A stretch of 64,000 bases of DNA from Podarcis muralis (taxonomy: Eukaryota), in assembly GCF_964188315.1 (NCBI RefSeq), contig NC_135656.1:4650001-4714000 (forward strand). The letters are read 5' to 3'. Every line of letters starts with the position of its first letter. Position 1 is the first letter of the stretch. Positions 58,701 to 61,700 of this stretch are shown one piece after another. A program made the position numbers.

Positions 58701-61700
58701 AAGCTTCACCTGAAGGAGCCTCTTCACCCCCATCGTTCTGCCTGGACACTGGGGTCCAGCTCCGAGGGCCTTCTGGCGGTTCCCGCGCTGCGAGAAGCTA
58801 AGTTACATGGAACCAGGCAGAGGGCTTTCTCGGTGGTGGCACCCGCCCTGTGGAACGCCCTCCCTTCAGATATCAAGGAGATAAACAACTACCAGACTTT
58901 TAGAAGACATCTGAAGGCAGCCCTGTTTAGGGAAGCTTTTAATGTTTGACAGACTATTGTATTTTAATATTTTGTTGGAAGCCGCCCAGAGTGGCTGGGG
59001 AAGCCCAGCCAGATGGGCGGGGTATAAATAATAGATGATGATGATGATGATGATTATTATTATTATTATTATTATTATTTATTATTATTATTCACCTGGT
59101 AATTTACTGCTACATTGCAGAATATCCTGCAGCACAGCAAGGATAAAAACATCGGATCAGCTCTGTTGGTATTCAGAGGCAATCTGCCTCTGATGGTGGA
59201 GCAAGAACCTAGCTAGTATGGCTAATAGCCAGTGATAGTCTCTTCCATGATTTTATTTGCTCCTCTTTTAAAAGCCATCCAACTTGATGGCCATCATGAC
59301 ACCTTTTCAGTCCCACAAGGTGGGACCAAGTCTATAGCTTAACTTTGTGCATAATTTGACTGAGCATGGGGAACCTCCAACCTGGAGACCAAATAAGACA
59401 CTCCTGGTCCCCAGGACTCTCCCAAGCCATGCCCCTCACTAGTGTAGCTCCATGCCCCCCTTGAGTACTTTCGCCAGGCTGGAAGGTATCTTACCTGGAT
59501 GGAAGATGGAGAGATGCCTCTATGTGGATGTGCTACAGCAGGGATGGGGAACCTGGCGCCCTCAAGATGATGCTGTACCCCAACCATTGTATGTATCCAT
59601 GACCATTGGCAATGTTGGGTGGGGCTGATGGGAGTTGAAGTCCAGCAACATCTGGAGAGCCACAGCATCCCTATCCCTGGTGCATAGAAAACTTTGGGGT
59701 TTGTCTGGAATGTAGTTTGCTGCACAAAAGTAAGAATTGTGTTGATTGCTCTGCCCATATTTGCTTCTGGCTCCACTCACTTTTTGCCTCTGCCCCCACC
59801 TGCCACTGACAAGCAGCCCCTGGAAGGTTGCTCATGAAGGAATGTGGCTCACCAATGTAGTAAAGGTAGTCTTCCAGATCAGTAGGCACGACTCCTGCCT
59901 TTTAGTTACCCCCTCTCTGGAAATGTTGACCTGGTGCTGTAGAATAAGGTGGGGGAAGCTCTGAGGTGGCAGGTGACATTTATGAGTGCTCCCCTCCATA
60001 AACAGCTCCCTGCAAGCAGAAAGCTAGCACTGCAGCTGGGCTAAATGTGCCAACTTTTAACTTGCAAAGACATGTTTGTATTGGGGGACGTTATGATCTC
60101 ATTCTGCTGAATGTGTAGACCAAGGCTTTTGCCTGGAGATTGGGATGGATGTCAGGTGGACAAAGATGGATCTCCACATGGGTTCTCCAGGGTTTTACAT
60201 GGCTTCGTTTCCCTTTATACCCTTTCAACCAGTCTCTCGTACTTGCAGTCAGAGTGGGAAGAGAGTGTCCGCATTCTCCCATTCTTTACAAGGTGGGTGA
60301 AGTTGAAATCCTAATCCACCGTAGCAACTGGGATTTCAAAACCAGGGGGTGGAGGGGTGGGCTGTTGTTGCCTTAACTCCAGGATGATTAGCAATGAGTT
60401 GACCAGGATGTGATCGGGTGCGTTATGTTTTACAGGTGAAGTCTTTGCTTGACTACCTTCTGCAGCACAAAATAATTAAGTGTGCCTCAACTCTGAGCTT
60501 AATGAGGGGTTTTGCTGGCCTAACAAGGGCCCTAGTGAAATAGGCAGGTCTTGAGCATTGTCTTTCTCTTTAGCAAATACCTTTGGCCCACACGGTCCCT
60601 GTCGTGGGGAAGGCTGTGGGGAATCTCCTTTCTCTCCCCCCCCCCCCTTAGTGATGGCATAACAATGTCTTCCTTCCATTCCAGGTGTAGGCTAGCGTGG
60701 CCGCAGAGTGGGTGTGAGCTCGCTGCACTGGACCCCACCCGGACCCCACAAGAGAGACTGCTGGGCTATGAGTGCCTGAAGGGATCGTGCCCACTCTTAA
60801 CGCCGCCTGCCGTGAGGTTTGCAGCCATGAGCAGGTAGGAGCCATCGGCAGAGCAGATCTGGGATTAAAGGATCAGCCAGCTGTTTGCCGTTTCACGGCT
60901 CCCTCCTGGTGGAGTTTAGTAGGTCAGAGCTGCCCAGGGAGTGTTGGGAGGGGGCAGAGGAAACAGACAGACAGTGGGGGCTTGGGGAGTGCAGCGCCTG
61001 ACTCCCCGATTCACCTCAGACACCCTGCTATCACCTCCTTTCCTCATTCTAAAGGCTGATCTCTGTGTTGAAAAGAAGCATGTCGCAGAGTCCCTGTGGG
61101 ACTGTATCACTTCAGATGGCAAGTGGTAGTAAGGGAAGCCGAGGGTTTCTTAATGCTCCCCTATGCTTAAAAATGAAGCAAAAAATCCTCTCCAAACCCT
61201 CTGTACAGTGATTCCTCCACATGCAAACTGTAGTGGTCCAGCCCTGCAAGCACTCTGCTGTGTGGTTCTGCTGATGGCGTAGCTTGGTTATTTTCTAGAG
61301 CTTTTCAAGCTAGCAAAGAATCAGTGTCTCTCTGTTTTTGTTTTTCCAAAATGTCCACCAGGGAGGTAGGGGTGTGTGTGTGTTGGGGGGCTTGGAGGTG
61401 ATTACACAAAAACTGATGCCACATTTTCTAGGTGGGTGACCGTTCTCCAGAGGCTTCTCCAGATGGTGAAGCCTAGTTGCACAGGCCACAAATGGCAAGA
61501 CCTGATAGAATGGAGCTTACTTTGAAGCTCCATTCTATCAGGTCTTGCCATTTGTGGCCTGTGCAACTAGGCTGCACCATTCCCAGCTTAGGGTTGGCCT
61601 GAGAAGTTTGCAACTGGGTTACATGCCCTCCCTCCCTCCCTCCCTCCCTCCCCCCCCACCCCTCTCCAGGCAAGGTGGTTGTGCCTGCCATCTTGGTGAC

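What the first reader, a model, noticed from the sequence alone, without database searches (positions are those of the whole stretch)
61463..61580. Perfect 49-bp inverted repeat (56 bp with one mismatch) just upstream of the MBD6 start-codon exon
Seen: 61470-61518 is the exact reverse complement of 61525-61573 around a 6-nt loop (ACTTTG), extending to 61463/61580 with one mismatch. The arms are complex sequence, I found no second copy in the window and no TSD, and it ends ~140 nt before the acceptor at 61718. Established: perfect dsRNA of this length is a substrate for ADAR, Drosha/Dicer and dsRNA sensors, and such palindromes extrude cruciforms and are usually unstable. Inference: a young fold-back insertion or a selected hairpin RNA or splicing element. 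It is the strongest unexplained structure in the window.
Basis: partly seen in the sequence, partly recalled or inferred. Interest (0 to 1): 0.65.

Follow-up and report, generated by a model that had tools for sequence, protein, structure and literature searches.

The report
Young perfect palindrome in MBD6 intron
A real 118-base palindrome that would fold into a near-perfect hairpin lies just upstream of the first coding exon of a lizard MBD6 gene, and it looks like a recent one-step copying accident or a tiny transposon rather than a working RNA gene.

Summary
Arms 61463-61518 and 61525-61580 are 56 nt with one mismatch (61469 A / 61574 G). They are perfect over 49 nt and enclose the 6-nt loop ACTTTG. 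Chance cannot produce this: RNA fold z = -16.7, DNA fold z = -20.

The boundaries are sharp, and there is no other copy in the 64-kb window. The palindrome lies 137 nt upstream of the acceptor of the exon carrying the MBD6 start codon. That exon matches Lacerta agilis MBD6 at 36 of 37 residues.

No Rfam family reaches its gathering score. A 56-bp stem with a 6-nt loop is not canonical pri-miRNA geometry.

An imperfect 8-bp direct repeat abuts the arms (TTCTCCAG / TTC-CCAG), with an empirical p of about 0.01, found post hoc.

Best reading: a young, probably neutral, one-step palindrome. My leading origin is replication template switching or fold-back copying (0.45). Insertion of an all-TIR MITE is close behind (0.30).

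No eukaryotic genome collection was available. Genome-wide copy number, orthologues, read support, small RNAs and editing are therefore all untested. Interest is low to moderate.

The parts
61463..61518 (.). Left arm of the inverted repeat (56 nt; perfect part 61470-61518)
61519..61524 (.). Non-palindromic 6-nt spacer/loop ACTTTG
61525..61580 (.). Right arm of the inverted repeat (56 nt; perfect part 61525-61573). The single mismatch is 61574 G opposite 61469 A.
61455..61462 (.). Left copy of a candidate imperfect target-site duplication (TTCTCCAG). The same 8-mer also occurs 12 nt upstream at 61443-61450.
   Evidence: empirical p about 0.01, post hoc
61580..61586 (.). Right copy of the candidate imperfect duplication (TTC-CCAG, one base shorter). 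It overlaps the last base of the right arm.
61626..61656 (+). (CCCT)7.8 microsatellite / pyrimidine tract between the palindrome and the acceptor
61718..61854 (+). MBD6 exon carrying the start codon. AG acceptor at 61716-61717, ATG at 61742, GT donor at 61855-61856. Residues 1-37 match L. agilis MBD6 at 36/37.
62408..62511 (+). Next MBD6 coding exon. 62409-62510 matches residues 39-72 of L. agilis MBD6 at 34/34.

Best explanation
This is a genuine, evolutionarily recent, single-event palindrome in the 5'-UTR intron of a lacertid MBD6 gene, and most likely a neutral structural mutation. Proposed origin (inferred): during replication or repair the nascent strand switched template, either by folding back on itself or by jumping to the opposite strand. 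It then copied about 49-56 nt of adjacent sequence in reverse complement and returned to the original template. That leaves a perfect inverted repeat around a short unpaired loop in one step (a template-switching mutation, TSM). The outer 6 bp beyond the single mismatch may be the microhomology used for the return, or the mismatch may be one later substitution. Consequence (inferred): on the + strand the palindrome is transcribed within MBD6 pre-mRNA. There it folds into an isolated 56-bp hairpin 137 nt upstream of the acceptor and is removed with the intron. The most plausible molecular side effect is A-to-I editing of the duplex (from recalled knowledge of ADAR). I do not expect canonical Drosha/Dicer processing or an effect on the acceptor. 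Shown: the structure, its sharp ends, its position, its uniqueness in the window, and the lack of a known RNA family. Inferred: the mechanism of origin, the age and the neutrality.
For: There is one mismatch in 56 pairs and 49 perfect pairs. Complementarity stops abruptly: reverse-complement similarity of the flanks is no better than at about 1,025 control positions (fraction at least as good 0.34, 0.29 and 0.16 for 40, 80 and 150 nt). This fits one discrete event rather than an old decayed repeat. The arms are complex, have average GC, contain no simple repeat and have no other copy in 64 kb. No canonical TA, TTAA or TWA duplication lies at the ends. The termini do not resemble the TACAGTGG-type MITEs that are present in the window. 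TSMs are documented to create perfect stems in one event, with examples of 28 and up to 83 bases, and over 6,000 new hairpins with 30-55-base stems in primate gene regions (PMC10710096, abstract and passages). Peptides encoded by the arms found nothing: 0 hits for the 106-aa minus-strand ORF in the 5.8-billion-protein set and 0 for the 41-aa plus-strand ORF among 1.84 billion representatives. This is only weak evidence against a high-copy family. The palindrome is not near a gap: the only N run is 25415-25555.
Against: An imperfect 8-bp direct repeat abuts the arms (TTCTCCAG / TTC-CCAG). Only 1.0% of 4,877 control positions scored as well in the strict abutting test, and 6.2% of 9,018 in a looser local-alignment test. 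That is what a hAT-like insertion would leave, and a TSM does not predict it. The window shows that MITEs are common in this genome, with about five or six elements in 64 kb. A 56-nt copy lies at the long end of the TSM sizes I saw quoted. The defining TSM evidence, an ancestral sequence without the second arm, could not be obtained. Genome-wide copy number is unknown. Neutrality is assumed, not shown.
Confidence: 0.45

Rival explanations
1. It is a copy of a tiny, almost all-TIR miniature inverted-repeat transposable element, built like human Made1 (two TIRs around 6 bp). It inserted recently into the MBD6 intron and made an 8-bp target-site duplication that has since lost one base.
For: The architecture matches Made1: two long TIRs flanking a 6-bp core (PMC1784062, abstract and passages). 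An abutting imperfect direct repeat TTCTCCAG / TTC-CCAG has an empirical p of about 0.01. The ends are sharp. The window carries several other MITEs, so DNA transposons have been active in this genome. Absence from a 64-kb window is uninformative for any family below roughly ten thousand copies (my estimate).
Against: The duplication is imperfect although the 112 arm bases carry only one difference. The motif TTCTCCAG is also repeated 12 nt upstream (61443-61450), so the flank similarity may reflect local repetition. There is no TA, TTAA or TWA duplication, and I recognise no terminal motif of a superfamily (from recall, not tested against a TE library). No second copy or related autonomous element is in the window. 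There were 0 hits for arm-encoded peptides in two very large protein sets, which is weak evidence.
Confidence: 0.3
2. It is a selected hairpin RNA: a new miRNA or endo-siRNA precursor, an ADAR-editing or protein-binding platform, or a splicing regulator of the start-codon exon.
For: The hairpin is extremely stable and lies in the sense orientation within a transcribed intron, 137 nt from an acceptor. TSM- and MITE-born hairpins have become miRNA genes elsewhere (PMC10710096 and PMC1784062). Rfam covariance models for long-stem miRNA families give sub-threshold scores, the best being mir-607 at 63.1 bits against a gathering score of 94.
Against: All 28 Rfam matches in the 181-nt scan are below gathering. 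They are spread over unrelated plant, nematode and mammalian families on both strands, so they are generic hairpin matches. The whole-window scan at gathering threshold found 0. The 56-bp stem and 6-nt loop contrast with the preferred 35-bp stem and 10-nt-or-longer loop (PMC10710096). An abstract seen in a search listing states that vertebrates lack long miRNA hairpins (PMC12553114). The element is not a mirtron, because the hairpin does not abut a splice site. In the 461-nt fold, both the minimum-energy and centroid structures keep the stem self-contained and clear of the acceptor region. Near-perfection of the arms indicates youth rather than maintained function. No conservation data are available.
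Confidence: 0.08
3. It is an assembly or sequencing artefact: a fold-back chimeric read or a polishing error fixed in the consensus.
For: Perfect short-spacer palindromes are known products of chimeric fold-back reads (recalled). Read data are not available, so this cannot be excluded.
Against: The palindrome is bounded at 56 nt and embedded in unique sequence that continues normally on both sides into a correctly spliced, conserved exon. It is 36 kb from the only N run. It carries an internal mismatch and a non-palindromic loop. It matches no plasmid or vector record (no match) and no bacterial or archaeal genome (0 matches).
Confidence: 0.07
4. It is an older palindrome whose arms are kept identical by intramolecular repair or gene conversion within the hairpin or cruciform, so near-perfection does not mean youth.
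For: Template switching was first proposed as a way of converting quasi-palindromes into perfect ones (PMC10710096, passage). The age estimate from one mismatch is very loose, with a Poisson 95% range of 0.09-62 My under assumed rates.
Against: No degenerate complementarity survives outside the 56 nt. Short-spacer inverted repeats are reported as more mutable and unstable rather than long-lived (PMC12887540, passages).
Confidence: 0.1

Closest known systems
Template-switching-mutation (TSM) hairpins (Monttinen, Frilander and Loytynoja 2023, PMC10710096)
   Same: A perfect reverse-complement copy lies next to its template and forms a full stem in one mutational step. It is located in a transcribed gene region and is lineage-specific.
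   Different: No ancestral or outgroup sequence was available, so the four-point TSM solution was not demonstrated. The 56-nt arm is at the long end of the sizes quoted in the passages I read. An abutting near-direct repeat is not predicted by a TSM.
Made1 MITEs / hsa-mir-548 precursors (Piriyapongsa and Jordan 2007, PMC1784062)
   Same: Near-perfect palindrome made of two long terminal inverted repeats around a 6-bp core, folding into a very stable hairpin when transcribed.
   Different: Made1 is 80 bp with 37-bp TIRs, derives from the mariner Hsmar1 and had 7,850 annotated human copies. Here the arms are 56 nt, there is no TA duplication (the mariner TA rule is recalled), no sequence relation was tested or expected, and only one copy is known.
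Canonical animal pri-miRNA hairpins
   Same: Intronic, sense-strand stem-loop. Rfam miRNA models give sub-threshold scores.
   Different: The stem is 56 bp rather than about 35 bp, the loop is 6 nt rather than 10 nt or more, and the stem has almost no mismatches (for the norms). No family reaches gathering.
Long inverted-repeat hairpin RNA (hpRNA) endo-siRNA loci of Drosophila, and giant invertebrate miRNA hairpins (PMC12553114, abstract in listing only; hpRNA recalled)
   Same: A long, nearly perfect intramolecular duplex that Dicer could in principle cut into siRNA-like duplexes.
   Different: Those are invertebrate phenomena, and the abstract seen says vertebrates lack long miRNA hairpins. 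No small-RNA evidence exists here.

Membership tests
TSM-derived inverted repeat | A reverse-complement copy adjacent to its source that forms a perfect stem | tested here: met
   49 perfect pairs, 55 of 56 pairs overall, 6-nt spacer
TSM-derived inverted repeat | Second arm absent from the parental or outgroup sequence, with the change explained by a four-point template-switch solution | not testable with these tools
TSM-derived inverted repeat | Not a simple or low-complexity repeat (quality filter used in PMC10710096) | tested here: met
   TRF finds only (CCCT)n at 61626-61656, outside the arms. The arms are 48% GC and complex.
MITE (Made1-like palindromic element) | Terminal inverted repeats | tested here: met
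MITE (Made1-like palindromic element) | Target-site duplication of a superfamily-specific length directly abutting the TIRs | tested here: inconclusive
   No TA, TTAA or TWA duplication. There is an imperfect 8/7-bp repeat TTCTCCAG / TTC-CCAG: 1.0% of 4,877 controls scored as well in the strict test and 6.2% of 9,018 in the loose test, both devised post hoc.
MITE (Made1-like palindromic element) | Multiple dispersed copies in the genome | tested here: inconclusive
   0 further copies in the 64-kb window. 0 hits for arm-encoded peptides. The genome itself was not searchable.
Canonical pri-miRNA | Stem of about 35 bp with an apical loop of 10 nt or more | tested here: not met
   56-bp stem and 6-nt loop. 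The norm is taken from PMC10710096.
Canonical pri-miRNA | Match to a curated miRNA family at its gathering score | tested here: not met
   0 matches at gathering in the whole window. All 28 lax matches are below gathering.
Canonical pri-miRNA | Discrete ~22-nt reads with Drosha/Dicer end signatures | not testable with these tools
   No small-RNA data
Mirtron | Hairpin end coincides with a splice site | tested here: not met
   The hairpin ends 137 nt upstream of the acceptor
Assembly fold-back artefact | Palindrome at a contig end or gap, or unsupported by spanning reads | tested here: inconclusive
   It is not at a gap: the only N run is 25415-25555. Unique sequence lies on both sides. Read support is not testable.

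The most novel reading that the evidence does not exclude
The palindrome is a newborn, lineage-specific hairpin RNA locus caught almost at birth inside the 5'-UTR intron of a chromatin-regulator gene. In this reading it is created in one step, is already transcribed with MBD6, and is processed into siRNA-like small RNAs or heavily A-to-I edited. That would make it a vertebrate example of a long-stem small-RNA precursor, a class that an abstract I saw says vertebrates lack (PMC12553114, listing only).
Probability: 0.06. Interest if true: 0.55.

Novelty: new member of a known kind. Interest (0 to 1): 0.22.

Why it matters
If it is a template-switch product, it is a clean example of how a complete, perfect RNA stem can appear in a transcribed vertebrate gene in one mutational step. 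That is the proposed raw material for new miRNA genes, and lacertid genomes could date and polarise the event. If it is a MITE, it marks a recently active all-TIR DNA transposon family in lacertids. In both cases a 56-bp perfect short-spacer palindrome is a potential fragile site and ADAR substrate next to the first coding exon of MBD6. On present evidence it is an ordinary young structural variant, not a new kind of element.

Tried and rejected
(1) Known RNA family: rejected. Rfam scans are reported. There was nothing at gathering, and the sub-threshold matches are generic hairpin matches to unrelated families on both strands.

(2) Second copy in the window: none. blastn-short with word size 7 gave only the two arms. 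A 15-nt exact word at 26614-26628 has unrelated flanks and I treat it as chance.

(3) Degenerate extension of the repeat into the flanks: none beyond control level. The five extra pairs in the RNA fold are not significant.

(4) Vector or contaminant origin: no match in 72,556 plasmid records and 0 exact matches in bacterial and archaeal genomes.

(5) Protein-level proxy for copy number and orthologues: 0 hits. This is weak, because spurious ORFs of lizard introns are rarely in those sets. The third arm reading frame was not searched.

(6) Coding potential: the 106-aa minus-strand ORF through the palindrome has 0 Pfam families (protein 138).

(7) Pfam on the two MBD6 exons separately gave nothing useful. 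A PDB sequence search with the ORF containing exon 2 gave only a low-complexity match at E = 0.76. Gene identity came instead.

(8) A literature search for lacertid MITE or hAT families returned only plant, insect and fungal papers among the 12 listed. A search for an MBD6-hosted hairpin or miRNA returned nothing relevant among the 8 listed.

(9) tRNA-derived or SINE origin: 0 tRNA genes in the window.

(10) Other microhomologies around the junctions, such as AGCTTA at 61514-61519 and 61585-61590, were considered. I dropped them as post hoc and within chance.
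Full report
**1. Observation**

The sequence and the repeat finder show arms at 61463-61518 and 61525-61580. They are 56 nt long, 98% complementary and separated by 6 nt. A script locates the only mismatch at 61469 A opposite 61574 G. This leaves a perfect 49-nt inverted repeat (61470-61518 / 61525-61573) around the loop ACTTTG.

Outward from the arms, 61462 G / 61581 T could only wobble-pair in RNA, and 61461 A / 61582 C does not pair.

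A 48-nt arm pattern with up to three mismatches hits only the two arms, and none of 100 shuffles produced a hit.

- As RNA, 61440-61600 folds at -119.1 kcal/mol against a shuffle mean of -49.9 (z -16.7).
- As DNA, the hairpin is -71.2 against -17.6 (z -20.0).
- Of the 23 inverted repeats of 20 nt or more within 500 nt in the window, the runner-up has 39 nt at 85%.

**2. Surroundings**

I extracted 527 stop-to-stop ORFs of 55 aa or more. I scanned the 148 longest, plus the ORF containing the exon, against Pfam. Of these 149, 11 had any family at E <= 0.01.

- Above the curated cut-offs: RVT_1 (1807-2226 +), SH3_1 (9742-10215 -), GST_N_5 (19468-19977 +) and tRNA-synt_1g (32082-32435 +).
- Below cut-off but suggestive: WW (643-921 -) and bZIP_2 (44433-44906 -).

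This order fits the ARHGAP9, MARS1, DDIT3, MBD6 neighbourhood that I recall from other vertebrates. The gene names other than MBD6 rest on that recollection.

For MBD6 itself:

- The ORF 61733-61855 found 25 proteins at E <= 0.001 among 32 candidates. The named ones are squamate, and most are called MBD6. The best is Lacerta agilis MBD6 at 97% identity.
- Compared exon by exon, 61742-61852 equals residues 1-37 of that protein at 36/37.
- 62409-62510 equals residues 39-72 at 34/34.

The AG acceptor is at 61716-61717, the ATG at 61742 and the GT donor at 61855-61856. GC-rich islands lie at 51000-52000 and 55500-56000. The palindrome is therefore most likely inside a 5'-UTR intron, which is an inference without transcript data.

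The window is from a lacertid and I took no contig for human. One hit from an unnamed source (P0003) was neither fetched nor used.

**3. What the palindrome is not**

It matches no described RNA family.

- The whole window has 0 Rfam matches at gathering scores.
- A lax scan of 4 kb gave three sub-threshold miRNA-family matches on the palindrome.
- A lax scan of 181 nt gave 28 matches, all below gathering. The best was mir-607 at 63.1 bits against 94. The matches are scattered over plant, nematode and mammalian miRNA families on both strands, with alignments dominated by compensated pairs. That is the signature of any long perfect hairpin.

Its geometry is wrong for the canonical miRNA pathway. 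It has a 56-bp stem and a 6-nt loop, whereas the pathway prefers a 35-bp stem and a loop of 10 nt or more (PMC10710096, passages). An abstract seen only in a search listing states that vertebrates lack long miRNA hairpins (PMC12553114).

It is not a mirtron, because it ends 137 nt before the acceptor.

In a 461-nt fold running through the exon, both the minimum-energy and centroid structures keep the stem self-contained and clear of the acceptor region. From the sequence, a plausible branch site lies about 18 nt upstream of the AG, far from the hairpin (my reading, not a tool result).

Further negatives:

- The 106-aa minus-strand ORF that runs through it has no Pfam family.
- It matches no plasmid record and no bacterial or archaeal genome.
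- It is 36 kb from the only N run, 25415-25555, which I left untouched.

**4. Origin**

Two features point to one discrete, fairly recent event. First, the arms differ at one of 56 pairs. Second, complementarity ends abruptly. The reverse-complement similarity of the flanks is matched or beaten at 34%, 29% and 16% of about 1,025 control positions for 40, 80 and 150 nt.

Assuming substitution rates of 0.8-2.5e-9 per site per year (my assumption, not a result), one difference in 112 sites gives point estimates of 3.6-11 My. The Poisson 95% range is 0.09-62 My. "Young" is therefore likely but loose, and arm-to-arm correction could make the palindrome look younger than it is.

Two mechanisms fit.

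(a) Template switching or fold-back copying. This is documented to create perfect stems in one step. Quoted examples are 28 and up to 83 bases, with more than 6,000 new 30-55-base hairpins in primate gene regions (PMC10710096).

(b) Insertion of an all-TIR MITE built like Made1, which has two 37-bp TIRs around 6 bp (PMC1784062).

TTCTCCAG (61455-61462) and TTC-CCAG (61580-61586) abut the arms.

- In a test I devised after seeing this, 1.0% of 4,877 control positions scored as well.
- A looser local-alignment test gave 6.2% of 9,018.

That favours a hAT-like insertion, but two points weaken it. The duplication is imperfect although the arms are almost intact. TTCTCCAG also recurs 12 nt upstream at 61443-61450, so the similarity may simply reflect a locally repeated motif.

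The window holds about five or six MITEs with TACAGTGGTRCCYCG-type ends. They are unrelated to this element.

As a proxy for copy number I searched peptides encoded by the arms. There were 0 hits for the 106-aa minus-strand ORF in the 5.8-billion-protein set. There were 0 hits for the 41-aa plus-strand ORF among 1.84 billion representatives. This is weak evidence, since intronic pseudo-ORFs of lizards are rarely in those sets, and the third reading frame was not searched.

I put the template-switch reading at 0.45 and the MITE reading at 0.30. The remainder is shared by an older palindrome kept perfect (0.10), a selected RNA element (0.08) and an assembly artefact (0.07).

**5. How it most likely works**

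Shown:

- a stable, isolated hairpin-forming palindrome in the sense strand of the MBD6 intron;
- no overlap with splice signals;
- no known family.

Inferred:

- It is transcribed with the host gene, folds co-transcriptionally and is discarded with the intron lariat.
- A 56-bp perfect duplex is a good ADAR substrate (recalled knowledge).
- In DNA it can extrude a hairpin or cruciform, and short-spacer inverted repeats are reported as more mutable (PMC12887540, passages).

I expect no selected function.

**6. What stayed unchecked**

- Genome-wide copy number, orthologous loci, read support, small RNAs and editing were not tested.
- No eukaryotic genome or repeat library was available.
- Supplementary files of the papers were closed. 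The TSM length tables of PMC10710096 could bear on how unusual a 56-nt event is.

**7. Verdict**

It is most likely a young neutral palindrome of a known kind, either a template-switch product or a tiny MITE. It is not a known RNA gene and not a canonical miRNA precursor. Interest is 0.22. The boldest reading still open is a newborn vertebrate long-hairpin small-RNA locus, at a probability of about 0.06.

Noticed in passing
window 22614-22695 (+): A second strong hairpin, unique in the window. It has a stem of about 29 bp, nearly perfect, around roughly 24 nt. RNA MFE is -75.4 kcal/mol, z -9.7 (I7, 11, 42). Its dimensions are closer to a pri-miRNA than those of the 61463 palindrome. There is no Rfam match at gathering. 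It lies between the GST_N_5 and tRNA-synt_1g ORF hits, so probably in a MARS1-like intron.
   Followed up: partly
window 6689-6846, 15267-15585, 25613-25769, 30906-31155, 37341-37719: A MITE family with TACAGTGGTRCCYCG-type terminal inverted repeats. The terminal motif has 11 matches against 0.08 expected. This shows that DNA-transposon derivatives are frequent in this genome. The family is unrelated to the palindrome.
   Followed up: partly
window 1807-2226 and 2583-2879 (+): Reverse-transcriptase (RVT_1) ORF fragments, a retroelement remnant, inside the region that also carries WW and SH3 exons on the minus strand.
   Followed up: no
window 61626-61656 and 62310-62395: Two tetranucleotide microsatellites lie next to MBD6 acceptors. 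(CCCT)7.8 lies about 60 nt upstream of the start-codon exon's acceptor. A (CTTT)n tract runs up to the polypyrimidine tract of the next coding exon.
   Followed up: no
window 25415-25555: A run of 141 N. MITE copies lie directly downstream at 25613-25769.
   Followed up: no
window 51000-52000 and 55500-56000: Two GC-rich islands (GC 0.64-0.75) between the bZIP (DDIT3-like, minus strand) ORF and the MBD6 coding exons. They are probably the promoters or first non-coding exons of the two genes. No transcript evidence.
   Followed up: no
window 61742-61852: The MBD6 N-terminus differs from the Lacerta agilis record at one residue of 37 (G for A). The window therefore comes from a close relative or another individual, not from that exact record.
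   Followed up: yes
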